NCBI GenBank assembly: GCA_046712755.1
Contig: JBKKCM010000059.1
Coordinates: 9,107 to 73,106 of the forward strand
Direction of reading: 5' to 3'
DNA: 64,000 nt
Source of the DNA: Nitrosarchaeum sp.
GTDB taxonomy: Archaea; Thermoproteota; Nitrososphaeria; Nitrososphaerales; Nitrosopumilaceae
Made by a program: the position numbers and the translations under genes. The stretch's first letter is position 1. Each line of letters starts with the position of its first letter. The notes under the pieces are model-generated. The model saw only the letters and a program-made list of their open reading frames with translations, did no database searches and had not been told where the DNA came from. Below are positions 21,763-38,570 of this stretch, in pieces.

Positions 21763-23575
21763 GAAATATTTGAATGTCGCTTTGAGATGATGCAAGTTTC
21801 ATAAGAGTTCTTGAAGCCTCAGAGCGTTTAGGAATTAGTATCTCACCTTTTTTGCCAATTCTGACAGATGTCACATATTTGTCATGGATATAGATATCAG
21901 CATGCATTGAGGAATATTCTCTGCCGACAGTTAGCAATAACGCAGTTTTGGATTCTGAAAAAGTAAATGGCAGATCACCAGATGTATTGGCAGAATGAGA
22001 ATTTTTTTCAACGACATCGATGTGAATTTTGAGTAATTTTTCAATCTCGTTTATGTTGGACCCACCTTTACCAATAATGGATGACATGTATTGCTTGTCA
22101 ACTAGAACCTTCACTTTATTATCAGATAATATCTCAACTTCTACCCTAGGATCGAATTTCCTAAAGATGTCTCGTATTTTGTCTTCTGCGAGTTTCTCAA
22201 TTCCAACTTTTGGCGCTTTTTTTGAGACTGGAACTATGACATTTTCTTCACCAAAAGTATAGATCTCATGCTCAAGTACATTATCGGCAAAATTCCTAAT
22301 CTCAATTACAGGTCTTGCCAAGTCAGACTCGGTCATGCCGGTGGGAACTTTTACTACAAGCTCCAAGTCATAGATTTTACCAATGTGCCCGTCTTTGACA
22401 AAAACTACAGTATCTATAACATTTGGGATTATTCCTAGTTCAATTTTTCCAATAAAACGTTGTATTGCATCCAAAGGAGAGTTTGCATGTACAACGCCGA
22501 CCATCCCCACACCAGTAAGTCTTAGATCAGCAAATGTGCGAAAGTCTTCTCGTCTTCGCACTTCATCAAAAATGGTATAATCAGGACGAACCAATAATAA
22601 AATATCAGCACTGTTATCAAAACTTCCATCTAGTTTTGTGTATTGTGTAACTCCAGGATCCACTTGCAGATCACGCGGAGATTCAAATGTTTTTACAATC
22701 TTTCCTGTATGGTGATAAAAATTAGCCAGACTGGATGCCAGAGTACTTTTTCCAGACCCGGGAGGACCAGAGATTATAATTCCCTCTGCCCTATCAGAAA
22801 ATCTCTTCATCAACTCTGCAGATATCTCATAATCGTCTAGGGTTAATTTCACAATAGGATGAACTATTGTGATTTCAAATGCTTCAGAAAATGGGGGGTA
22901 AGTAATGGCAATTCGATAATCATTGTACTGAATTACAGATGCACCAGTCTTTGAGATCTCTACAGTGCTTGAATCAAAAGTCGTAGTCTCTAAGATTTGA
23001 GATGATATGAATTGCAAATATTCTTTGGTAAGAATTTCATCACCTAGTTTTGTCAGATTAAAAGAACCAGGCTTTCCTTTTTTTGCCATTGGAGGCATGT
23101 TTTCTTTGAGATGCACGCTCATTGTTTCAGAATCAAAAAATTTTAAAAATTCCAAAACAAGATTTTTAGAAATTGGTTTTACAAATACTGATTCCAGTCC
23201 TTCTGCCTGTGCCACTAAATGTTGGACATGATCTGAGGTGTAAAGAATAGCCTGATTTTGTTTTGCTACATCTTTAATTATTGTGTCAATCCTGCCGGCA
23301 CTTGCCATACGAATATCCTCAGAGGTAGGATGAGCACCATGGATTGTTATAACCAAACCAAAATTATTTGATATTTCTTTGAGTTTTTTTATCCCCTCTA
23401 GTCCGATAAATCCCTGTTCCTTTTTCTGAGATGCTTGAGATTGTAATTCATCAAAAACTGCCTGGGGTATTATAATTTCAGAATTTTGAATGTGTCCAGA
23501 TTCAATCTGGGCAATCAATTGTCCATTAATTATGATACTTGTATCAACAACAATCTTTGACAAATTTTCTATCAA
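21749..23575 (-). CDS. PIN-domain ATPase with KH domain (PINA-like)
   Basis: VVDTS PIN motif, GPPGSGKST, DEVR, IIGKGG KH motif. Confidence 0.92.
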   Translation of the reverse strand: MIENLSKIVVDTSIIINGQLIAQIESGHIQNSEIIIPQAVFDELQSQASQKKEQGFIGLEGIKKLKEISNNFGLVITIHGAHPTSEDIRMASAGRIDTIIKDVAKQNQAILYTSDHVQHLVAQAEGLESVFVKPISKNLVLEFLKFFDSETMSVHLKENMPPMAKKGKPGSFNLTKLGDEILTKEYLQFISSQILETTTFDSSTVEISKTGASVIQYNDYRIAITYPPFSEAFEITIVHPIVKLTLDDYEISAELMKRFSDRAEGIIISGPPGSGKSTLASSLANFYHHTGKIVKTFESPRDLQVDPGVTQYTKLDGSFDNSADILLLVRPDYTIFDEVRRREDFRTFADLRLTGVGMVGVVHANSPLDAIQRFIGKIELGIIPNVIDTVVFVKDGHIGKIYDLELVVKVPTGMTESDLARPVIEIRNFADNVLEHEIYTFGEENVIVPVSKKAPKVGIEKLAEDKIRDIFRKFDPRVEVEILSDNKVKVLVDKQYMSSIIGKGGSNINEIEKLLKIHIDVVEKNSHSANTSGDLPFTFSESKTALLLTVGREYSSMHADIYIHDKYVTSVRIGKKGEILIPKRSEASRTLMKLASSQSDIQIFLKDF

Positions 23576-30744: not shown

Positions 30745-32050
30745 AAAAGAGCGTGAAAATGGATTGGGATTTGTCAAAACTCACAATATTGCAGAATTAA
30801 ACGCAGACATTATTGGAAAAGAGGTTGTATTAGGAGGGTGGATTGAAGATCTCAGAAAATTAGGAAAGATGACATTTATCACATTACGTGACGCTTCAGG
30901 AATTTCTCAAATAATAGTAAAAGGGGAGTTAAATGACAATCTAGGAGAAATAAACCGTCAAAGTGTAATTAGTGTAAGAGGTATTGTACAAGAAACAAAA
31001 GCACGAGATTTTGATTTTGAGATAAAAGCAGATGAAATAGAGGTGTTAGCAAAGGCAGTACATCCATTACCAATTGATCCAATTGGAAGAGTAGAAAGCA
31101 ATATCGATACAAGATTAAATCACCGTGCATTAGATATGCGAAACCAGAAAACTGCATCAATTTTCAAATTACGACATTATGTATTAGAAACATTACGTAA
31201 AACATTGGCATCAAAAAAATTTATCGAGATTACAACACCAAAAATAATTGGTAGTGCAAGTGAAGGAGGAGCAAATCTATTTTCATTAGATTATTTTGGC
31301 AAGACTGCATATCTTGCTCAAAGTCCACAATTATACAAAGAACAAATGACAATAGGACTTGAGAGAGTTTATGAAATTTCTAATTTCTATAGAGCAGAGA
31401 ATTCACATACAGGTCGTCATCTTAGTGAATTTACTAGCATAGATATCGAAGCTGCATTTATGGACTATAATGATGTAATGAATATTTTAGAATCACTAGT
31501 AGTAGAAGTTTACAAAGATACATCAGAAAAGTGTAAGAAAGAACAAGAAAATATAGGTCATATAATTGAAATTCCAATATCTCCTTTTGAAAGAATAACA
31601 TACACCCAAGTAATTGATGAGCTAAAAAAAGTGGGTGAAAAAATAGAATTTGGAGATGACTTGCTTGATTCACATTTAAGAATAATTGGAAAGAACCATC
31701 CTGGATTTTATTTCCTCACTGACTGGCCAATGAAATTAAAACCATTTTACATAAGAGAAAAAGATGAAGACCCAAAATTATCACGCTCATTTGATCTTCA
31801 ATTTGGATATCTAGAGCTGGCATCTGGAGGAACTAGATTGCATAACCCAGAGATGTTAAAAGCCAGACTCAAAGAACAGGGTTTGGATCCAACACAATTT
31901 GCAGACCATCTTCAGACATTTGATTGGGGAATGCCACCTCACTCTGGTTGGGGAATGGGATTAGACAGACTAATGACTACGCTTATTGGAATAGACAATG
32001 TAAGGGAAGTTGTACTTTATCCAAGAGATCCCGATAGATTAAGTCCATAA
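30737..32050 (+). CDS. aspS: Aspartate-tRNA(Asp/Asn) ligase
   Basis: OB-fold N-terminus, YLAQSPQLYK, FYRAE, GMPPHSGWGMG. Confidence 0.96.
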   Translation: MSEKERENGLGFVKTHNIAELNADIIGKEVVLGGWIEDLRKLGKMTFITLRDASGISQIIVKGELNDNLGEINRQSVISVRGIVQETKARDFDFEIKADEIEVLAKAVHPLPIDPIGRVESNIDTRLNHRALDMRNQKTASIFKLRHYVLETLRKTLASKKFIEITTPKIIGSASEGGANLFSLDYFGKTAYLAQSPQLYKEQMTIGLERVYEISNFYRAENSHTGRHLSEFTSIDIEAAFMDYNDVMNILESLVVEVYKDTSEKCKKEQENIGHIIEIPISPFERITYTQVIDELKKVGEKIEFGDDLLDSHLRIIGKNHPGFYFLTDWPMKLKPFYIREKDEDPKLSRSFDLQFGYLELASGGTRLHNPEMLKARLKEQGLDPTQFADHLQTFDWGMPPHSGWGMGLDRLMTTLIGIDNVREVVLYPRDPDRLSP

Positions 32051-32782: not shown

Positions 32783-33796
32783 TTAGAGCCTATCGGTAAT
32801 TTCTTGAGTAAATTCAGATGTGGATTTGTCTCCGCCAATGTCTTTAGTTTTGACACCCCTTTTTACCAAATCAAAAATTGTAGATTCCAGTTTTTGACCA
32901 ACTGCAATACATTTTGAATCATTATGTTTTGCTCCAAGCCAGTCAAGCATCATTTTGATGGATAAGAGAAAGGATGAAGGATTTGCAATGTTTTTTCCTG
33001 CAATATCAAATGCGGCACCATGAACTGGTTCAAACAATGCAAAATTATCACCAATATTAGCAGCTGGTGCCATACCTAATCCACCTACAACTTGAGAGGA
33101 TTCATCAGATAAAATATCACCAAACAAATTGGTAGTTACTATGACATCAAATTGTTCTGGTTGGCGAATAAGATTCATAGCACATGCATCAACATACATT
33201 TGTTCAAATAAAATATCAGGATAGTTTTTTGCTACTTCACTACAAGATTTTGCAAATAATCCATCAGTAAGTCGCATTACATTGGATTTATGAACACATG
33301 TAACTTTTTTCATAGAGTTACGTTGTTTTGCAGTTTCAAATGCATATTTTGCAATTCTCTTTGAAGCATATTCTGAAATTATTCTCAATGCAACAGCCGA
33401 GTCCCCCAAGCTGAATTCTTTACCAGTGTAAAGATCCTCAGTATTCTCTCTAACAATTACCATGTCAATATCATCTCTTAATGCAGGCATGTGAGGGTAT
33501 GATTTTGCGGGGCGAATATTGGCATAAAGATCAAGAATACGTCTTAATACAACAATTACATCAGCTGCGCTTTCACCAACTGGTGCCTTTAAACAAGCAT
33601 CAGATTTTTTAATTGTGAATATAGTTTCATCAGGTAGTGCTTTTCCAGTTTCTTTTAATGCAGCATCGCCTGCATGTAATTTTGTAATATCAAATTTTAA
33701 ATCAAGTTTATCATGAATTGTACTCAATACAGATACCGCAGAATTAGAGAGTTCAGGTCCGATTCCATCACCAGTGATTAATGAGATTTTATACAT
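32783..33796 (-). CDS. leuB: 3-isopropylmalate dehydrogenase
   Basis: MYKISLITGDGIGPE, VRENTEDLY, NLFGDILSD, FEPVHG; start at 33796, not 33913. Confidence 0.9.
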   Translation of the reverse strand: MYKISLITGDGIGPELSNSAVSVLSTIHDKLDLKFDITKLHAGDAALKETGKALPDETIFTIKKSDACLKAPVGESAADVIVVLRRILDLYANIRPAKSYPHMPALRDDIDMVIVRENTEDLYTGKEFSLGDSAVALRIISEYASKRIAKYAFETAKQRNSMKKVTCVHKSNVMRLTDGLFAKSCSEVAKNYPDILFEQMYVDACAMNLIRQPEQFDVIVTTNLFGDILSDESSQVVGGLGMAPAANIGDNFALFEPVHGAAFDIAGKNIANPSSFLLSIKMMLDWLGAKHNDSKCIAVGQKLESTIFDLVKRGVKTKDIGGDKSTSEFTQEITDRL

Positions 33797-33894
33797 AATC
33801 AAAAATAATGTAAATGGGAATTTTAAATGATTGCTTAAAAAATATAGTGCAAAGTCAGGAAGGTTTATGTTTTGTGGATAAAAAGCGGTAAAAG

Positions 33895-34227
33895 ATGTTA
33901 AAAATAGAAGCAATAGTTAGGAGTTCAATGTTGCAAGATATTCAAGTAATATTAGCAAAAAATGGAATACCAACTTTTTCAGTGTATCAAGTACAGATAA
34001 CAGGAGTGCATAAAGCACATAAAAGTTTGAGAAATAAAACAAGTGATTTTATTCCAAAATCAAAGCTGGAGATTCTGTGTCCAGATAATACAGGAGATGA
34101 AATAGTCAAAATAATTCAAGATACCGCCAGAACAGGTGAAAAAGGAGACGGAATTGTATATGTTTACAAAATAAACAAATTAGTGAAAATCAGAAATGGA
34201 GATATAGATGAAAAGGCGTTATCATAA
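33895..34227 (+). CDS. Divergent P-II family protein
   Basis: KIEAIVR, DFIPKSKLE, ARTGEKGDG, KIRNG. Confidence 0.8.
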   Translation: MLKIEAIVRSSMLQDIQVILAKNGIPTFSVYQVQITGVHKAHKSLRNKTSDFIPKSKLEILCPDNTGDEIVKIIQDTARTGEKGDGIVYVYKINKLVKIRNGDIDEKALS

Positions 34228-34233
34228 TAAAAT

Positions 34234-35751
34234 TTAGTGCCCAATTTGTTTTTCATTAAACATTTTTTTGAGCATTATTCTGTTAATGCCGTCAATCACT
34301 GCTTGAACGCTGGTAGTAACAATGTCTTCACCGATAGATTTTGCAGAGACACTATTTCCTTGCGCATCTTCAACTCTGATTGTTACTTCACATAATGCAG
34401 TAGAACCGCCAGATATTGATGCCAAGCCATAGTCTTTGATTCTAAGTTCAGATATTTGTCCGGTGATTTTTTGAATGGCATTTAAGGCAGCATCTACTGG
34501 ACCAACACCATAATCAGTTCCTATAAAGTCCTTGCCATCAATGTTCAATTTAACAAATGCATAAGGCATTGTTCCAATTCCAGTAGATACTGAAAATCCA
34601 GTCAATTGGACAATTCGTTTGATTCCTTTTTCTCCTAGAATATTACTTGCAATAGAAAGTAGCTCAACATCTGTAATTTGTTTTCCTTGGTCACCAATAA
34701 TTTTTATTTTATCAAGAATTTGTTTTGCCTGATCATCTGTTGGGTGTATACCATATTCAGCAAGCATTGCGTTCATACCATGAATTCCTGCATGTTTTCC
34801 AACTTGAAGCCATCTCTTTCGCCCAACTAATTCAGGACTTATTGGCTCATAGGTTAATGGATTATTCAATATGCCATGGGTATGTATTCCAGACTCATGA
34901 CCAAATGCATTATCTCCAACAATTGCCTTGTTTGGTTGAACTTGAACACCTACAGTTTTTGAGATAAACCTAGATGTCTCATAGAGTAATTCAGATTTAA
35001 TTCCAGTTTCATATTTTTGATCATAAGGTAAGCACTTCAAGGCCATAACAAATTCTTCTAATGATGCATTGCCTGCTCTTTCACCAATTCCATTAATTGT
35101 GACATGAGCACATTGAGCACCTGCTCTTATTCCAGATAATGCATTGGCTACAGCCAACCCAAAGTCATTATGACAATGAACACTGATTGGAAGTTTTGTA
35201 GCTTCAATTGCATCTTTAGTGATTTCTGCCATAAATTCAGGAGTTGCATAACCAACAGTATCAGGAATGTCGATTCTGTCAGCACCCGCTTTTGCAACTT
35301 CACCAAATACATGTTTAAGAAAATTTCTGTCAGTTCTTGTTGCATCTTCTGCAGAAAACTCCACTTGTAGTCCTCGAGATTTACTGTATTCTACTGCATC
35401 TATTGCTTTTTCAAGTGCTTGTTCTCGTGTCATTTTGAGTTTATACTCTAAATGAATATCAGAAGTTGCAATAAAGGTGTGAATGTAGTTTAATCCTGCA
35501 TCAACTACAGCATCAATGTCTTTTTTATTAGTTCTAGCCAAACCACAGATATCAGAAGACAAACCTTCACTTGCAATCATCTTTACAGCTTTGAATTCAC
35601 CTTCAGAGATTACTGGAAATCCAGCTTCAATTGCATCAACACCAAGGATGTCGAGTTTTTTTGCAATGGCAAGTTTTTGATCTGGAGATAGTGAAATACC
35701 AGGTGTTTGCTCGCCATCTCTTAATGTTGTATCAAAAATTCTAATTCTCAT
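34234..35751 (-). CDS. leuA: 2-isopropylmalate synthase (LeuA/CimA family)
   Basis: DTTLRDGEQ, HCHND, HESGIH, GVGPVDA. Confidence 0.93.
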   Translation of the reverse strand: MRIRIFDTTLRDGEQTPGISLSPDQKLAIAKKLDILGVDAIEAGFPVISEGEFKAVKMIASEGLSSDICGLARTNKKDIDAVVDAGLNYIHTFIATSDIHLEYKLKMTREQALEKAIDAVEYSKSRGLQVEFSAEDATRTDRNFLKHVFGEVAKAGADRIDIPDTVGYATPEFMAEITKDAIEATKLPISVHCHNDFGLAVANALSGIRAGAQCAHVTINGIGERAGNASLEEFVMALKCLPYDQKYETGIKSELLYETSRFISKTVGVQVQPNKAIVGDNAFGHESGIHTHGILNNPLTYEPISPELVGRKRWLQVGKHAGIHGMNAMLAEYGIHPTDDQAKQILDKIKIIGDQGKQITDVELLSIASNILGEKGIKRIVQLTGFSVSTGIGTMPYAFVKLNIDGKDFIGTDYGVGPVDAALNAIQKITGQISELRIKDYGLASISGGSTALCEVTIRVEDAQGNSVSAKSIGEDIVTTSVQAVIDGINRIMLKKMFNEKQIGH

Positions 35752-36239
35752 GCTCCGCTCCTCTGCAAAGCCGCAACCCCTGTTCTTGCAACTTCAAGGA
35801 TTCCAAATGGTTTTGCCAATTCCTCAAAGGCTCTAATTTGATCAGGAGTGGCAGTCAACTCTACCATTATTGAATCCTTTCGTACATCATGTATTTTTCC
35901 GCCATATGCATTTGCTAATTTATTTACCTCCATGCTATCATTAGCATTACTTAGCTTAATCTTAAAAATACTTAGTTCTCGATATACTGTTTTGTGTTCA
36001 TCCAAGTGCTTTACTTCTATGGTATCAATCATTTTATCAAGTTGCTTTACTATTTGTTCAACTTGTTTTTCATCACCATATGTTGTAATAGTCATCCTTG
36101 AGTATTCGGGATTGTCAGTTACGCCCACAGAAATGCTATCAATATTAAAATTTCTGGATCTGAAAAGATGAGTAACCTTAAACAATATTCCAGGTTTATT
36201 TTCAACTAAAAGAGTAAGAATAGCCCACATGATAATCAC
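35748..36239 (-). CDS. ilvH: Acetolactate synthase small subunit
   Basis: ENKPGIL...RNFNIDSISVG ACT domain. Confidence 0.95.
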   Translation of the reverse strand: MIIMWAILTLLVENKPGILFKVTHLFRSRNFNIDSISVGVTDNPEYSRMTITTYGDEKQVEQIVKQLDKMIDTIEVKHLDEHKTVYRELSIFKIKLSNANDSMEVNKLANAYGGKIHDVRKDSIMVELTATPDQIRAFEELAKPFGILEVARTGVAALQRSGA

Positions 36240-37936
36240 TATGAAGGTAAAATCATATCCGCAAGAGAAGTTCCTGGTGCTACAAATGGCAATACATCTT
36301 CTTCAGGATCAATTGGAATATCAATTACTGTTGCAACATCACTTTTCAATGCTGTTTTGATGGCCTTATCAAGTTCATCCATTGACTGTGCACGTATTCC
36401 TTGAGCTCCATATGATTCAGCTAGTTTTACATAATCAGGACATTTTCCTTGATCAACTCCTATCATTCTTCTATTATAGAAAGTTCGTTGCCATTGTGCA
36501 ACCATTCCCAACGTAAAATTATTTAAGAGAAATACAATCACCGGGATATCTTCCAGTACTGCAGTTGCAAGAGAGTTTTCTGTCATGCTAAAACTACCAT
36601 CTCCTGCAATGTCCACTACAGGAACATCAGGTTTGGCTACTTTGGCACCAATGGCTGCAGGAAATCCCCACCCCATAGTTCCAAGTCCAGTAGAACTAAA
36701 GAAAGTGCCAGGTTGTATTACATCATAAAAAAGGGATGCCCACATTTGATGTTGGCCTACTTCAGTAGTTACAATAGATTCATGAGGCAATACTTCTCTG
36801 AGCTTTCTCAAGATTTTTGCGGCGCCCATTTCACCTGGATGTAGTTTCAAATTTTCTTTCCAATACTCTTTGGTTTCTTTTACATGTTTAATCCAAGTAT
36901 TTTCTTCAGTTCTTTTGATTGCTTTTTGCATAAGCATCTTTACCATAATTCTAAGTGATGCACGGACATCACCAACTACTGCAACTGATGTAGTTTGATT
37001 TTTACCAATTTCAGCTGGATCTACATCCATATGAATAATTTTCAGTCTCTTTTCAAATGCTTCAAAGGTTCCAACAGATCTATCAGAAAATCTTGTACCT
37101 ATTGCCAATACACAATCAGCTTCAATCATCATTTTGTTTGCCTCTGCGTGACCATGCATTCCAATTGGTCCCAATGATAATGGGTGATTTTCTGGAAATG
37201 CACCTTTTCCTTTGAAAGTAGTAACTACTGGAATCATAAGTAATTCAGCTATAGATTGAAGTTCTGCAAAGGCAGATGAGATGATTGTTCCCCCACCAGC
37301 TAAGATAATGGGTCTTTCTGCACTAAGTAACATCTCAAGTGCTCTTTCAACATTTGCAATATCAGGATTAGTCCATGGATGATAACCGCGAATTTTGAAT
37401 TCATCGGGAAAAGTCATAGATGCTTCTTTTTGTTGTACATCTTTTGGAATATCAATAAGAACAGGTCCAGGTCTACCAGTTTCTGCAATGTAAAATCCTT
37501 TTCTAACTACCATGGGAATTTCATCAGGAGATCTAGGTTGAAATGCATATTTTACAGCAGGATTTGCCATTCCGATAATATCACTTTCCTGAAATGCATC
37601 TTTTCCAATCATTGCCACTGGAACTTGACCAGTAACTGCAATCATAGGAGAAGAGTCAGCTTGCGCAGTAGCAATTCCAGTTAGAATGTTGGTGGCACCA
37701 GGTCCAGATGTAGCAAAACATACGCCAGGTTTTCTGCTAACTCGTCCAAATCCATCTGCCATATGTGCTGCAGATTGCTCATGTCTAACCAAGATATGTC
37801 GAATGTTACATCTAGCAAATTCATCATACATTGGAAGGTTTGCACCTCCGGGTAAGCCAAATACTTCTTTGACACCTTCTTTTTCCATAGCAACCATCAA
37901 TGCTCTTGCACCTGTCATAGTTTCCATTTTATTCAA
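36239..37936 (-). CDS. ilvB: Acetolactate synthase large subunit
   Basis: RHEQ, TSGPGATN, GDGSF TPP motif. Confidence 0.96.
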   Translation of the reverse strand: MNKMETMTGARALMVAMEKEGVKEVFGLPGGANLPMYDEFARCNIRHILVRHEQSAAHMADGFGRVSRKPGVCFATSGPGATNILTGIATAQADSSPMIAVTGQVPVAMIGKDAFQESDIIGMANPAVKYAFQPRSPDEIPMVVRKGFYIAETGRPGPVLIDIPKDVQQKEASMTFPDEFKIRGYHPWTNPDIANVERALEMLLSAERPIILAGGGTIISSAFAELQSIAELLMIPVVTTFKGKGAFPENHPLSLGPIGMHGHAEANKMMIEADCVLAIGTRFSDRSVGTFEAFEKRLKIIHMDVDPAEIGKNQTTSVAVVGDVRASLRIMVKMLMQKAIKRTEENTWIKHVKETKEYWKENLKLHPGEMGAAKILRKLREVLPHESIVTTEVGQHQMWASLFYDVIQPGTFFSSTGLGTMGWGFPAAIGAKVAKPDVPVVDIAGDGSFSMTENSLATAVLEDIPVIVFLLNNFTLGMVAQWQRTFYNRRMIGVDQGKCPDYVKLAESYGAQGIRAQSMDELDKAIKTALKSDVATVIDIPIDPEEDVLPFVAPGTSLADMILPS

Positions 37937-37946
37937 TCAAATCTAT

Positions 37947-38042
37947 CTCCATAATTTTAAGTGTTAAAACTCGGAGCACTTTTTACAGTACTAGATCAAC
38001 TAGTAATAAGACATCCAATTTACTAGTTATCGTTGTGCTCAT
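37947..38042 (-). promoter_or_regulatory. Attenuator-like leader with mutually exclusive hairpins
   Basis: GAGCAC/GUGCUC pairing competes with a hairpin in which CUCC pairs with the GGAG SD-like site of ilvB. Confidence 0.55.
37983..38042 (-). CDS. Putative ilv/leu leader peptide (19 aa)
   Basis: MSTTITSKLDVLLLVDLVL*; 6 Leu, 3 Val, 1 Ile; ends 46 nt before the ilvB TTG. Confidence 0.7.
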   Translation of the reverse strand: MSTTITSKLDVLLLVDLVL

Positions 38043-38165
38043 TGAAATTCAAATGTAATATACAACTGATAATTAATAAAGATTCTCAGAAAATTACTAG
38101 TGTTTTTTGACGTGCTTAGTCCAGAAGACTTAAACTGATAATTTTTCATATTTTGAATAACGATT

Positions 38166-38570
38166 TTGTCTGAAAATGAGGAAATTATTAGGATAATTGA
38201 AACACTGTTTGAATCAGGAAAGACAAAGGATTTTTCATCACTTAGAGACATTCATCTCAATGATTCTAGATTTTCAAGTTTCAGTGATTTACCACCATAC
38301 GATCTAAAAGATTTTCAAACTACCGTTGAATTAGAGGAATTAAAATTCATAAGTATTTCTGATTATGACTATCAAATTAAAAATCCAAAAATAAGTGTAT
38401 TTGGAAATGCAGCTGTTGTAGCTTTGGAATTAAATCAAAAAGGAATGTTAGTAGATAACAAAGCATACACAGGTGAACATATTTCAATTGAAGGTAGAGC
38501 AACTTTTGTGTTAGTTAAACAACCAACATGGAAAATTGTACACATCCATCTATCTAAAATAAAAAACTAA
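38166..38570 (+). CDS. SnoaL/NTF2-like protein
   Basis: VFGNAAVV...RATFVLVKQPTWKIVHIHLS. Confidence 0.8.
   Translation: MSENEEIIRIIETLFESGKTKDFSSLRDIHLNDSRFSSFSDLPPYDLKDFQTTVELEELKFISISDYDYQIKNPKISVFGNAAVVALELNQKGMLVDNKAYTGEHISIEGRATFVLVKQPTWKIVHIHLSKIKN

What the first reader, a model, noticed from the sequence alone, without database searches (positions are those of the whole stretch)
37947..38042. Leu/Val/Ile-rich leader peptide with a hairpin switch ahead of ilvB-ilvH-leuA
Seen in the sequence: the minus-strand ORF 38042-37983 encodes MSTTITSKLDVLLLVDLVL*. Ten of 19 residues are branched-chain, nine of them in the last 11 codons, including a TTA-TTA-CTA Leu run. It sits 46 nt before ilvB, with an AT-rich TATA-like tract about 30 nt upstream. 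Structure A pairs GAGCAC (38040-38035) with GUGCUC (37979-37974) around an inner 9-bp stem, AACUAGUAA/UUACUAGUU. Structure B is the hairpin CUCC-G-AGUUUUAA-CAC-UUAAAAUU-AU-GGAG (37976-37947), which buries the GGAG lying 10 nt before the ilvB TTG. A and B compete for the same bases. Established knowledge: bacterial ilv/leu operons are controlled by leader peptides rich in the cognate amino acids. Inference: this is ribosome-stalling attenuation, probably at the translational level, in an archaeon, where such control is poorly documented.
Basis: partly seen in the sequence, partly recalled or inferred. Interest (0 to 1): 0.85.

Follow-up and report, generated by a model that had tools for sequence, protein, structure and literature searches.

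The report
Archaeal branched-chain amino-acid leader peptide
A 19-codon mini-gene ending in a run of Leu/Val codons, with competing RNA helices, sits in front of the branched-chain amino-acid operon of this ammonia-oxidising archaeon and most of its relatives; it looks like a bacterial-style ribosome-read amino-acid sensor, which I could not find described for Archaea.

Summary
The minus-strand sORF 38042..37983 encodes MSTTITSKLDVLLLVDLVL*. It lies behind a TATA box and ahead of ilvB-ilvH-leuA-leuB in a Nitrosarchaeum genome.

It is far beyond chance:
- Only 2 of 839 upstream regions in this genome carry such an sORF.
- 56 of 89 distinct ilvB upstream regions across Nitrososphaerales carry one, against 1-2% in controls.
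- The peptides differ, but all end in Leu/Ile/Val.
- Variation is codon-periodic (NUN), and indels inside the ORF are multiples of three.
- The last codon is almost always the rare CUG.

Helix A pairs the start-codon region with the post-stop segment and covaries (GAGCAC/GUGCUC, GGGCGC/GCGCCC, GACCACA/UGUGGUC, GACUGA/UCAGUC). Hairpin B masks the ilvB Shine-Dalgarno sequence. A and B share three bases. The ilvB initiation region is among the most structured in the genome (1.8th percentile).

No bacterial-type terminator is present, and simple ribosome-masking folds did not reproduce the switch. How stalling is read out is therefore unresolved.

Best reading: a Leu/Val/Ile-sensing leader peptide acting mainly on translation. 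I found no published archaeal precedent.

The parts
38072..38079 (-). TATA box (TTTATTAA) of promoter P1. Its first T is 37 nt before the sORF ATG. It sits inside the conserved block AGAATCTTTATTAATTATC.
   Evidence: Sequence. The block is conserved across genera. TTTATTA is 5.1x enriched at the TATA position of genes in this genome, where the motif peaks at -32..-29 of start codons. The TATA-to-sORF-ATG distance is 30-38 nt in most lineages. The sORF therefore starts about 0-8 nt from the predicted 5' end.
37983..38042 (-). Leader sORF, 19 codons plus stop: MSTTITSKLDVLLLVDLVL*. L/I/V codons are at positions 5, 9, 11-15 and 17-19. The last sense codon is the rare CUG.
   Evidence: sequence and translation; rarity; orthologous sORFs; codon-periodic variation; CUG last in 36 of 43 sequences; CUG is 5.5% of Leu codons; in-ORF indel of 6 nt, against 1-2 nt outside.
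38035..38040 (-). Helix A, 5' arm (GAGCAC). It begins with the G of the sORF start codon.
   Evidence: Other genera carry GGGCGC, GACCACA, GACUGA or UUGAGUG here, each with the matching 3' arm.
37974..37979 (-). Helix A, 3' arm (GUGCUC), the 'switch segment' 4-9 nt after the stop. It is also the 3' arm of hairpin S and overlaps the 5' arm of B.
   Evidence: duplex energy within species -7.1 vs -5.4 kcal/mol across species; 0 of 10000 permutations; overlap of 2-3 nt with B in six lineages.
37989..38005 (-). In-ORF hairpin '2:3': UACUAG (38005-38000), loop UUGAU, CUAGUA (37994-37989). It is formed by codons 13-18.
   Evidence: one compensatory pair U-A/C-G within the genus. (83% paired in 43 family sequences vs 20-39% for most slid controls and 62% at +3; variants CUAG/CUAG, CCAG/CUGG, CAAG/CUUG). 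The hairpin may partly be a by-product of Leu-Val codon repeats.
38020..38028 (-). Segment 1 (AACUAGUAA).
   Evidence: Helix 1 is 77% paired in the genus. It has a compensatory variant in L008 (CUGGUG/UGCCAG) and is lost in several species.
37976..37991 (-). Stop-spanning hairpin S: GUACU (37991-37987), a loop that contains the UAA stop, AGUGC (37980-37976). It occupies the position of the stop-adjacent hairpin H1 of other lineages.
   Evidence: MFE; 81% paired in the genus. Stop-adjacent hairpins recur across the order: GCUGUAA..ACAGC in Nitrosotalea and Nitrosotenuis, and GC-rich stems with z-scores of -2 to -3.7 in other families.
37947..37976 (-). Hairpin B: CUCC-G-AGUUUUAA-CAC-UUAAAAUU-AU-GGAG. 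Its 3' arm holds the ilvB Shine-Dalgarno sequence.
   Evidence: 96% paired in the genus, mostly invariant. (outer stem covaries: CUCC/GGAG, GUCCAU/AUGGAC, CCCU/GGGG; p about 0.03). (initiation-region accessibility 0.236, 1.8th percentile of 218 SD-led genes).
37947..37950 (-). Shine-Dalgarno GGAG of ilvB.
   Evidence: Its first G is 14 nt before TTG 37936. SD-like motifs in this genome peak at -14..-11. Orthologues carry GGUGA, GGGGUG, GGGUGA or GAGGAG at this place.
37929..37952 (-). Second mini-ORF, ATG 37952 .. TAA 37931-37929 (MEIDLIE*). It ends 1 nt before ATG 37927 and overlaps TTG 37936. In Nitrosopumilus the same ATG is in frame with ilvB.
   Evidence: Sequence. A comparison of L052/L131 with L001 shows a 1-nt difference. 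Open frames are 573-575 aa in genus g35 against 565 aa in Nitrosarchaeum. Function is unknown.
36239..37936 (-). ilvB, the acetolactate synthase large subunit. The probable start is TTG 37936; the alternative is ATG 37927.
   Evidence: Pfam TPP_enzyme_N/M/C. SD spacing favours TTG 37936. In L024 an in-frame TAA precedes the ATG.
32783..36239 (-). Rest of the operon: ilvH (35748-36239), leuA (34234-35751) and a leuB-like Iso_dh gene (32783-33913).
   Evidence: Pfam. The ORF junctions overlap or abut.

Best explanation
The sORF is a leader peptide that lets the ribosome report the supply of charged Leu, Val and Ile tRNAs to the ilvB-ilvH-leuA-leuB operon.

**Proposed arrangement.** Transcription starts a few nucleotides before the sORF ATG, so the sORF is the first, nearly leaderless cistron. 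ilvB is a second, SD-led cistron.

**Two folds of similar energy.** The leader RNA can adopt either of two folds.
- OFF: segment 1:2, the stop-spanning hairpin S and hairpin B. B buries the ilvB Shine-Dalgarno sequence.
- ON: helix A plus the in-ORF hairpin 2:3. A pairs the 5' end and start codon with the post-stop segment. This takes away three bases of B and frees the SD.

**How supply is read.** How long ribosomes dwell on the Leu/Val/Ile codons at the 3' end of the sORF, above all the rare final CUG next to the stop, decides which fold prevails. That in turn sets how often ilvB is initiated. Control is therefore mainly translational.

**What is shown and what is inferred.**
- Shown: the sORF, its conservation and coding-type evolution, covariation of A and of the outer stem of B, their mutual exclusivity, and the unusually closed ilvB initiation region.
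- Inferred: co-transcription, translation of the sORF, stalling, and the direction and route of the switch.
For: 1. The sORF is rare in the genome (2 of 839 upstream regions) yet present before ilvB in 56 of 89 distinct upstream regions of the order, against 1-2% in controls.
2. The peptides share no motif across families except L/I/V richness at the C terminus. This is expected of a codon sensor, not of a folded protein.
3. Coding signatures: entropy at codon position 2 (0.70) < position 1 (1.12) < position 3 (1.42) over the last 10 codons of 43 sequences. The only indel inside the ORF is 6 nt, while indels outside it are 1-2 nt.
4. The last sense codon is the rare CUG in 36 of 43 sequences.
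5. A TATA box lies 30-38 nt before the sORF ATG, which is close to this genome's leaderless geometry. In Nitrosotalea, Nitrosotenuis and related lineages the sORF stop is only about 30 nt from the ilvB ATG. No promoter fits there, so ilvB must be read from the sORF promoter.
6. Helix A covaries: 0 of 10000 permutations reach the observed within-species pairing energy.
7. The outer stem of B covaries (p about 0.03).
8. A and B overlap, and their forced-fold energies lie within 0.8-4 kcal/mol in 4 of 6 lineages.
9. The ilvB initiation region is at the 1.8th percentile of accessibility among 218 SD-led genes.
10. GGAG sits at the canonical SD distance from TTG 37936.
11. No intrinsic-terminator-like site is present.
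12. A working bacterial analogue exists: leaderless poly-Cys sORFs, where stalled ribosomes block structures that sequester the downstream RBS (bioRxiv 10.1101/834739).
Against:
- In partition-function folds with a 30-nt ribosome mask, parking the ribosome on any of the last nine sense codons did not raise SD/start accessibility in this species or consistently in 22 others. Only a ribosome with the stop codon in its A site did so here (0.29 to 0.46). That result fits plain translational coupling as well as sensing does.
- Helix A would have to form around or behind ribosomes.
- Within the genus the helices are nearly invariant, so covariation there is not significant.
- In other families the stop-adjacent hairpin does not include the SD, so SD masking cannot be the universal read-out.
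- The in-ORF hairpin may be a by-product of CUN-GUN codon repeats.
- The sequences compared are phylogenetically related, so counts overstate independent events.
Confidence: 0.55

Rival explanations
1. Transcription attenuation. The stop-adjacent hairpin (S here, H1 elsewhere) and the U run after it (GAGUUUUAAC here, U4-U6 in relatives) stop or pause the archaeal RNA polymerase. A ribosome stalled on the last Leu/Val codons covers the 5' arm of the hairpin, or hairpin 2:3 or helix A competes with S. The polymerase then reads on into ilvB.
For: A hairpin starts within about 10 nt of the sORF stop in nearly all lineages; it spans the stop in Nitrosotalea, Nitrosotenuis and related genera and abuts it in several other families. 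In Nitrosopumilaceae it is usually followed by U4-U6. Segments 1:2, 2:3 and 3:4 form the classical set of alternatives. An unchecked earlier scan note reports a premature transcript end after the equivalent hairpin in Haloferax.
Against: No terminator-like site passes even a lenient scan at this locus. S has only 5 pairs, and the U run is only 4 long and lies inside hairpin B. T runs after genes in this genome are barely enriched over A runs. Many families have no U run after their hairpin. Archaeal intrinsic termination is generally held to depend on oligo-U, not on hairpins (own knowledge). There is also a problem with the sign of control: a ribosome starved at the first Leu codons (9, 12-14) would leave S free, which would terminate transcription under starvation.
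Confidence: 0.15
2. The sORF is translated but is not an amino-acid sensor. It would serve as a constitutive loading and coupling device. Ribosomes that start on the nearly leaderless 5' end open hairpin B when they terminate and then re-initiate on ilvB, or they protect the mRNA 5' end. Hydrophobic NUN codons would then be incidental, for example a result of U-rich sequence.
For: In the fold simulation only the terminating ribosome opens B. Leader genes have been proposed to raise translation of downstream genes by re-initiation (PMC4833913, listed; abstract only read). The second mini-ORF, which ends 1 nt before ATG 37927, also looks like a coupling device.
Against: This reading does not explain why the sORF is found before ilvB and not before other operons of this genome. 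It does not explain why C-terminal L/I/V richness is kept across families with unrelated peptide sequences and GC contents, nor why the rare CUG is fixed as the last codon.
Confidence: 0.12
3. The region is not read by ribosomes. The conserved elements would be DNA or RNA sites for a regulator, or a second promoter. The dyad AATTTTAA-CACA-TTAAAATT would be an operator, for example for an Lrp/AsnC-type factor. Alternatively TTAAAATTAT would be the TATA box of a leaderless ilvB transcript starting near ATG 37927.
For: TTAAAATTATGG is invariant even in lineages that have lost the sORF (L028, L054). Its first T lies 33 nt before ATG 37927, near the leaderless TATA peak. TTAAAAT is 2.3x enriched at TATA positions. 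The whole 60 nt is more conserved than synonymous sites in ilvB.
Against: The 3-nt periodicity, the preserved frame and the in-frame indel indicate translation. The G-U pair in AGUUUUAA/UUAAAAUU of six species fits RNA, not a DNA dyad. TTAAAAT is a weaker TATA word than TTTATTA (2.3x vs 5.1x). The SD at -14 of TTG argues for an internal, SD-led start. Lineages with a 30-nt gap have no room for a second promoter.
Confidence: 0.08
4. The sORF encodes a small hydrophobic protein that functions in trans and merely shares an operon with ilvB.
For: The C-terminal motif (L/V)LLV(D/E)L(V/L)L is conserved within Nitrosopumilaceae, including an acidic residue at position -4. A leader peptide with a function in trans is known in Sinorhizobium (peTrpL; PMC7298713, listed).
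Against: No motif is shared between families; only composition is. Lengths run from 14 to 37 residues, with only 8-10 hydrophobic residues at the C terminus, too few for a membrane helix (own knowledge). Leu-to-Pro, Leu-to-Gln and Leu-to-Ser changes are tolerated where they keep RNA pairing.
Confidence: 0.05

Closest known systems
Enterobacterial leader-peptide transcription attenuators of ilvBN (ivbL), ilvGMEDA (ilvL) and leu (leuL)
   Same: A short ORF in the leader of a branched-chain amino-acid operon is rich in the cognate codons. leuL uses rare Leu codons, and the fixed final codon here is the rare CUG. Several mutually exclusive helices are present (1:2, 2:3, 3:4). Basis: own knowledge of the family.
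   Different: No GC-rich terminator with a U run is present. The stop codon lies between segments 3 and 4, not after segment 1. The sORF has almost no 5' UTR and no SD. The final helix masks a ribosome-binding site. The host is an archaeon, whose polymerase is not known to use hairpin terminators.
Mycobacterial leaderless poly-Cys sORF attenuators (Ms5788A type; Canestrari et al., bioRxiv 10.1101/834739)
   Same: A leaderless first cistron is rich in the end-product amino acid, lies upstream of the biosynthetic genes, and works with an RNA duplex that sequesters the RBS of the next gene. Control is translational.
   Different: That system is bacterial and senses Cys, not Leu/Val/Ile. There the stalled ribosome directly blocks the sequestering duplex. 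Here the sensing codons end 7-10 nt short of the 5' arm of B, and a long-range helix A to the 5' end is an extra player.
Corynebacterium glutamicum ilvBNC attenuator with a leader peptide made without a ribosome-binding site
   Same: An ilvB operon is preceded by a branched-chain-rich leader peptide that is translated without an RBS, together with a multi-hairpin leader (PMC11857589 abstract; Morbach et al. 2000, as cited in PMC13158618).
   Different: That system is described as transcription attenuation with a terminator hairpin. It is bacterial.
Translational attenuation of cat/erm resistance genes
   Same: A ribosome paused on a short leader ORF remodels a hairpin that hides the RBS of the downstream gene (own knowledge; PMC5118997 abstract).
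   Different: Stalling there depends on a drug and the nascent peptide, not on tRNA charging, and no 5'-end helix is involved.

Membership tests
Classical leader-peptide transcription attenuator (trp/his/leu/ilv type) | Short ORF in the leader, enriched in codons of the pathway's end-product amino acids | tested here: met
   10 of 19 codons are L/I/V, 9 of them among the last 11. The feature is conserved in 56 of 89 orthologous leaders against 1-2% in controls.
Classical leader-peptide transcription attenuator (trp/his/leu/ilv type) | Leader ORF and structural genes lie on one transcript | tested here: inconclusive
   A TATA box lies 37 nt before the sORF ATG. Related lineages with a 30-nt gap have no room for another promoter. 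No TSS or RNA-seq data were available, and a weak TATA-like word precedes ilvB here.
Classical leader-peptide transcription attenuator (trp/his/leu/ilv type) | Mutually exclusive alternative RNA helices | tested here: met
   A and B share 2-3 nt in six lineages and have similar energies in four of them. A covaries, as does the outer stem of B.
Classical leader-peptide transcription attenuator (trp/his/leu/ilv type) | Intrinsic terminator (GC-rich hairpin followed by a U run) between the leader ORF and the first gene | tested here: not met
   Zero terminator-like sites in 37700-38400. S has 5 pairs and is followed by CCGAGUUUUAAC.
Classical leader-peptide transcription attenuator (trp/his/leu/ilv type) | Expression rises when the cognate tRNAs are uncharged | not testable with these tools
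   Needs physiology, Ribo-seq or a reporter.
Translational attenuation by a leaderless sensory sORF (mycobacterial Cys type) | The sORF starts at or next to the transcript's 5' end | tested here: inconclusive
   TATA spacing predicts a 5' UTR of about 5-7 nt here and 0-8 nt in relatives. No TSS has been mapped.
Translational attenuation by a leaderless sensory sORF (mycobacterial Cys type) | An RNA structure sequesters the RBS of the downstream gene | tested here: met
   Hairpin B pairs CUCC with the SD GGAG. Initiation-region accessibility is at the 1.8th percentile. The outer stem covaries.
Translational attenuation by a leaderless sensory sORF (mycobacterial Cys type) | A ribosome stalled on the sensing codons physically prevents the sequestering structure | tested here: not met
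   With a -17/+12 footprint, only a ribosome with the stop codon in its A site reaches CUCC. Stalls on the last nine sense codons left accessibility at 0.29-0.34. This is a thermodynamic model only.

The most novel reading that the evidence does not exclude
Ribosome-mediated amino-acid sensing by leader peptides exists in Archaea. In ammonia oxidisers it would work by a route not described in bacteria. The extreme 5' end of a nearly leaderless mRNA, including the leader's own start codon, and the Shine-Dalgarno sequence of ilvB would compete for one short post-stop segment. The transcript would then toggle between 'leader open / ilvB closed' and 'leader closed / ilvB open'. Ribosomes queued on rare Leu/Val codons would set the balance. 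The same principle, a Leu/Ile/Val-rich sORF abutted at its stop by a hairpin, would be ancestral to the whole order Nitrososphaerales. If the unchecked earlier notes of this scan hold, it would recur in other archaeal phyla.
Probability: 0.3. Interest if true: 0.92.

Novelty: new variant of a known kind. Interest (0 to 1): 0.8.

Why it matters
Leader-peptide attenuation is a textbook bacterial mechanism. It depends on ribosomes reading the mRNA while, or soon after, it is made. In eight full-text searches I found no documented archaeal case.

A conserved Leu/Val/Ile leader in front of ilvB across the ammonia-oxidising archaea would have three consequences:
- It would show that Archaea also use the ribosome as an amino-acid sensor.
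- It would give a concrete, small and mutable element for studying translation-coupled control, leaderless initiation and re-initiation in a globally abundant group that has almost no known gene-regulation mechanisms.
- It would add an unannotated but conserved gene to hundreds of genomes.

The locus also makes the question directly testable, because specific codons, helix A and hairpin B can each be mutated and restored.

Tried and rejected
- **Rfam.** No family matched; only sub-threshold snoRNA noise appeared.
- **Bacterial-type terminator.** None was found.
- **Ribosome-masking partition-function folds in 23 lineages.** Stalled ribosomes did not consistently open the ilvB initiation region. 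The script stopped on a missing key before the families outside Nitrosopumilaceae were reached.
- **Leaders for other amino acids in this genome** (His, Trp, Phe, Thr and others). The top sORFs lie before unrelated genes, so this is not a genome-wide system here.
- **Second promoter from TTAAAATTAT.** It is possible but only weakly supported.
- **U run as terminator.** T4 is unremarkable in this AT-rich genome.
- **Genus-only covariation test.** There is too little variation for it to be informative.
- **The 70-aa ORF 38039-38251 that overlaps the sORF ATG.** It has no Pfam hit and lies antisense to the SnoaL-like gene and the promoter region. I treated it as spurious.
- **ilvB upstream regions outside the order** (about 24 other Thermoproteota families, Methanosarcina, bacteria). 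A comparable sORF was found only in family f37; the other families sampled have none.
They are not held.
Full report
**1. What is in the sequence**

Read on the minus strand, the 229-nt spacer lies between a divergent SnoaL-like gene (38166-38570, +) and ilvB. It contains these elements in order:
- a conserved block AGAATCTTTATTAATTATC with the TATA box TTTATTAA (38079-38072);
- the sORF ATG 38042 .. TAA 37983, which translates to MSTTITSKLDVLLLVDLVL*;
- the segment AAAGUGCUCC;
- the AU-rich dyad AGUUUUAA-CAC-UUAAAAUU;
- AUGGAG;
- GAUUUGAUUGAAUAAAAUGG, which carries the ilvB start.

Pfam identifies the downstream genes as ilvB, ilvH, leuA and an isopropylmalate/isocitrate dehydrogenase family gene. 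Rfam has no family here.

**2. Organism and relatives**

The ilvB protein is 96% identical to that of Nitrosarchaeum sp. LAS73. The window therefore comes from a Nitrosarchaeum (Nitrosopumilaceae, ammonia-oxidising archaea). I collected ilvB upstream regions from:
- 20 species of the genus;
- 25 further genera of the family;
- 18 further families of the order;
- about 24 other families of the phylum;
- Methanosarcinales and bacteria.

**3. The sORF is real and not chance**

- In the window's own genome, only 2 of 839 gene-upstream regions hold an ATG-sORF of 10-45 codons with at least 8 of its last 10 residues L/I/V.
- Among 89 distinct ilvB upstream regions of the order, 56 hold one with at least 7/10. 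The reverse complements give 2.2% and shuffles 1.1%.
- Examples: MSTITNNILPVLLLVELVL, MSTTTAGALDVLLPVVLVL (same genus); MNTKLIGAFDKDLLVVILL (Nitrosopumilus); MNMTIYSSTALAVLLPVELVL (Nitrosotenuis); MTKVDSTSISSILLQVELVL (Nitrosotalea devanaterra). Other families carry endings such as ...SLILVIILLL...TVLPLVVLL...EVLLVILI and ...GLLLLVVLLD.
- Between families nothing is shared but the C-terminal Leu/Ile/Val run. This is what a codon sensor predicts and a folded peptide does not.
- Outside the order I found such an sORF in only one further family, f37. The other Thermoproteota families sampled, Methanosarcina and the bacteria lack it.

**4. Signs of translation**

- Over the last ten codons of 43 distinct family sequences, variation is codon-periodic: position 2 (0.70 bits) < position 1 (1.12) < position 3 (1.42). 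U is almost fixed at position 2.
- In the genus alignment the one indel inside the ORF is 6 nt, whereas indels before and after it are 1-2 nt.
- The last sense codon is CUG in 36 of 43 sequences. CUG makes up only 5.5% of Leu codons in this genome. This recalls the rare Leu codons of the E. coli leu leader (own knowledge).
- The TATA box lies 30-38 nt before the sORF ATG in most lineages.
- In this genome TATA-like words peak at -32..-29 of gene starts, the leaderless arrangement. SD-like words peak at -14..-11.
- The sORF, with its TATA at -37, should therefore have a 5' UTR of only about 5-7 nt and no SD. ilvB has GGAG at -14 of TTG 37936, as genes internal to a transcript do.
- In Nitrosotalea, Nitrosotenuis and several other genera the sORF stop is only 29-36 nt from the ilvB ATG and no TATA-like word lies between them. 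There ilvB must be transcribed through the sORF.

**5. RNA structures**

*Helix A.* It pairs the start-codon region with the post-stop segment. RNAalifold predicts it for the genus, and it changes sequence between genera while keeping complementarity:
- GAGCAC/GUGCUC (Nitrosarchaeum, Nitrosopumilus L134; UGAGCA/UGCUCA in L131);
- GGGCGC/GCGCCC (g38);
- GACCACA/UGUGGUC (g3);
- GACUGA/UCAGUC (g48);
- UUGAGUG/CACUCAA (g4).

Matched 5' and 3' windows pair better than mismatched ones from other species: -7.1 vs -5.4 kcal/mol over 32 representatives, with 0 of 10000 permutations reaching the observed value. At order level the same test is marginal (p = 0.047).

*Hairpin B.* Its AU-rich inner stem is invariant. 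Its outer stem pairs the post-stop segment with the SD and also covaries: CUCC/GGAG, GUCCAU/AUGGAC, CCCU/GGGG (p about 0.03 over 9 representatives).

*A against B.* They use overlapping bases in all six lineages examined. Forced-fold energies differ by 0.8-4 kcal/mol in four of these. The fold with B also contains segment 1:2 and the stop-spanning hairpin S. The fold with A contains the in-ORF hairpin 2:3.

*Hairpin 2:3.* It is 83% paired over the family, against 20-39% for most slid controls (62% at +3). Its variants CUAG/CUAG, CCAG/CUGG and CAAG/CUUG turn Leu into Pro or Gln while keeping the pair. It may also partly reflect Leu-Val codon repeats.

*Genus-level test.* Within the genus the structures are 86% paired against 34-54% for slid controls. 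There is too little variation for significant covariation.

*ilvB initiation region.* It is at the 1.8th percentile of predicted accessibility among 218 SD-led genes of this genome.

**6. Two architectures**

- Basal genera of the family have a stop-spanning hairpin (GCUGUAA..ACAGC), then a weak AU hairpin with the SD in its loop, then the ATG.
- Nitrosarchaeum, Nitrosopumilus and allies have S, helix A and the extended hairpin B, with a 55-nt gap.
- Families outside Nitrosopumilaceae have strong GC-rich hairpins that begin 0-3 nt after the stop (z-scores of -2 to -3.7). The SD lies 3-16 nt beyond them.
- The feature common to the whole order is therefore a Leu/Ile/Val run that ends at a stop codon abutting a hairpin.

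**7. Mechanism**

No bacterial-type terminator is present. The U run is only 4 long and lies inside B. T runs after genes are hardly enriched in this genome. A transcriptional model also has a problem with the sign of control: a ribosome starved at the first Leu codons leaves S free.

My ribosome-masking folds did not reproduce a stall-dependent opening, however. Only a ribosome at the stop codon opens B (0.29 to 0.46). The link from stalling to the switch is thus inferred. Three routes are possible:
- long dwell on the terminal rare CUG;
- loss of stacking between S and B;
- ribosome queues that leave the extreme 5' end free to form A but too short for a new initiation.

A constitutive coupling role, a weak second promoter (TTAAAAT is 2.3x enriched at TATA positions against 5.1x for TTTATTA) and an operator reading of the dyad remain as rivals.

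**8. Comparison with what is known, and novelty**

The closest working analogues are bacterial:
- the enterobacterial ilv/leu leaders;
- the C. glutamicum ilvBNC leader, translated without an RBS;
- above all the mycobacterial leaderless poly-Cys sORFs, which act by blocking RBS-sequestering structures.

Eight full-text searches found no archaeal leader-peptide attenuator. One tool paper lists Archaea generically among organisms with regulatory uORFs, without giving an example.

Earlier unchecked notes of this scan report the same class of element in another Nitrosopumilaceae genome, Nitrososphaera viennensis, haloarchaea, Methanomassiliicoccales, Archaeoglobus, Bathyarchaeia and an Asgard archaeon. 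I treat these as leads. My own survey confirms the Nitrososphaerales part only.

**9. Verdict**

I class it as a new variant of a known kind, leader-peptide attenuation, in a new domain and with a different anatomy.

Noticed in passing
window 37929-37952 (-): A second mini-ORF, ATG GAG ATA GAT TTG ATT GAA TAA (MEIDLIE*), starts inside hairpin B and ends 1 nt before ATG 37927. It is invariant in about 20 Nitrosarchaeum species. In Nitrosopumilus the same ATG is in frame with ilvB because of a 1-nt difference. This suggests either termination-reinitiation coupling or a shifted ilvB start.
   Followed up: partly
loci L174, L177, L181, L185, L187, L189, L193, L195 (ilvB upstream regions of other Thermoproteota families): These lineages lack the sORF but share a different small conserved hairpin 60-130 nt before ilvB: GAGGGAU-N3-8-(A/U)CCCUCCAAG, for example GATGAGGGATGGTACCCTCCAAGTATAG. 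It may be another cis-regulatory element of branched-chain amino-acid genes.
   Followed up: no
loci L069, L072, L073, L076 (Methanosarcina ilvB upstream): A conserved, apparently structured stretch, TTCTGATGAACACAC..CTTACTGG...CCAGT(T/A)AA, lies about 60-110 nt before ilvB. No Leu/Val-rich sORF is present.
   Followed up: no
window 38039-38251 (-): A 70-codon ORF ends in TGA overlapping the sORF ATG (ATGA). It has no Pfam hit, runs through the promoter region and lies antisense to the start of the SnoaL-like gene. It is probably spurious.
   Followed up: partly
own genome, contig C19 about 22470-22600 (outside the window): This is the only other upstream region in the genome with an sORF that has 8/10 C-terminal L/I/V (MSLIHNFCIICNYNILLIILLV). 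It precedes a 103-aa ORF whose sequence looks like a small winged-helix regulator (my reading of the sequence; no family search was run).
   Followed up: no
own genome, contig C50 about 31040-31075 (outside the window): A Trp-rich 11-codon sORF (MNLVTWWHSWP) lies upstream of a 159-aa ORF with a hydrophobic N-terminal stretch (not annotated here; no Trp-pathway enzyme is recognisable in its sequence). It is probably chance.
   Followed up: partly
window 32783-37936 (-): The operon joins ilvB-ilvH with leuA and a leuB-like gene but has no ilvC, ilvD or leuCD. This matches earlier first-reader notes on related genomes.
   Followed up: partly
loci L028, L149 (g2), L157, L158 (g34), L054, L147, L160, L030, L153: Some genera of the family, several of them GC-rich or with very small genomes, have lost the sORF. 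Several of them (L028, L054, L147) still keep a TTAAAATTA-type word before ilvB. The two elements can therefore be uncoupled.
   Followed up: partly
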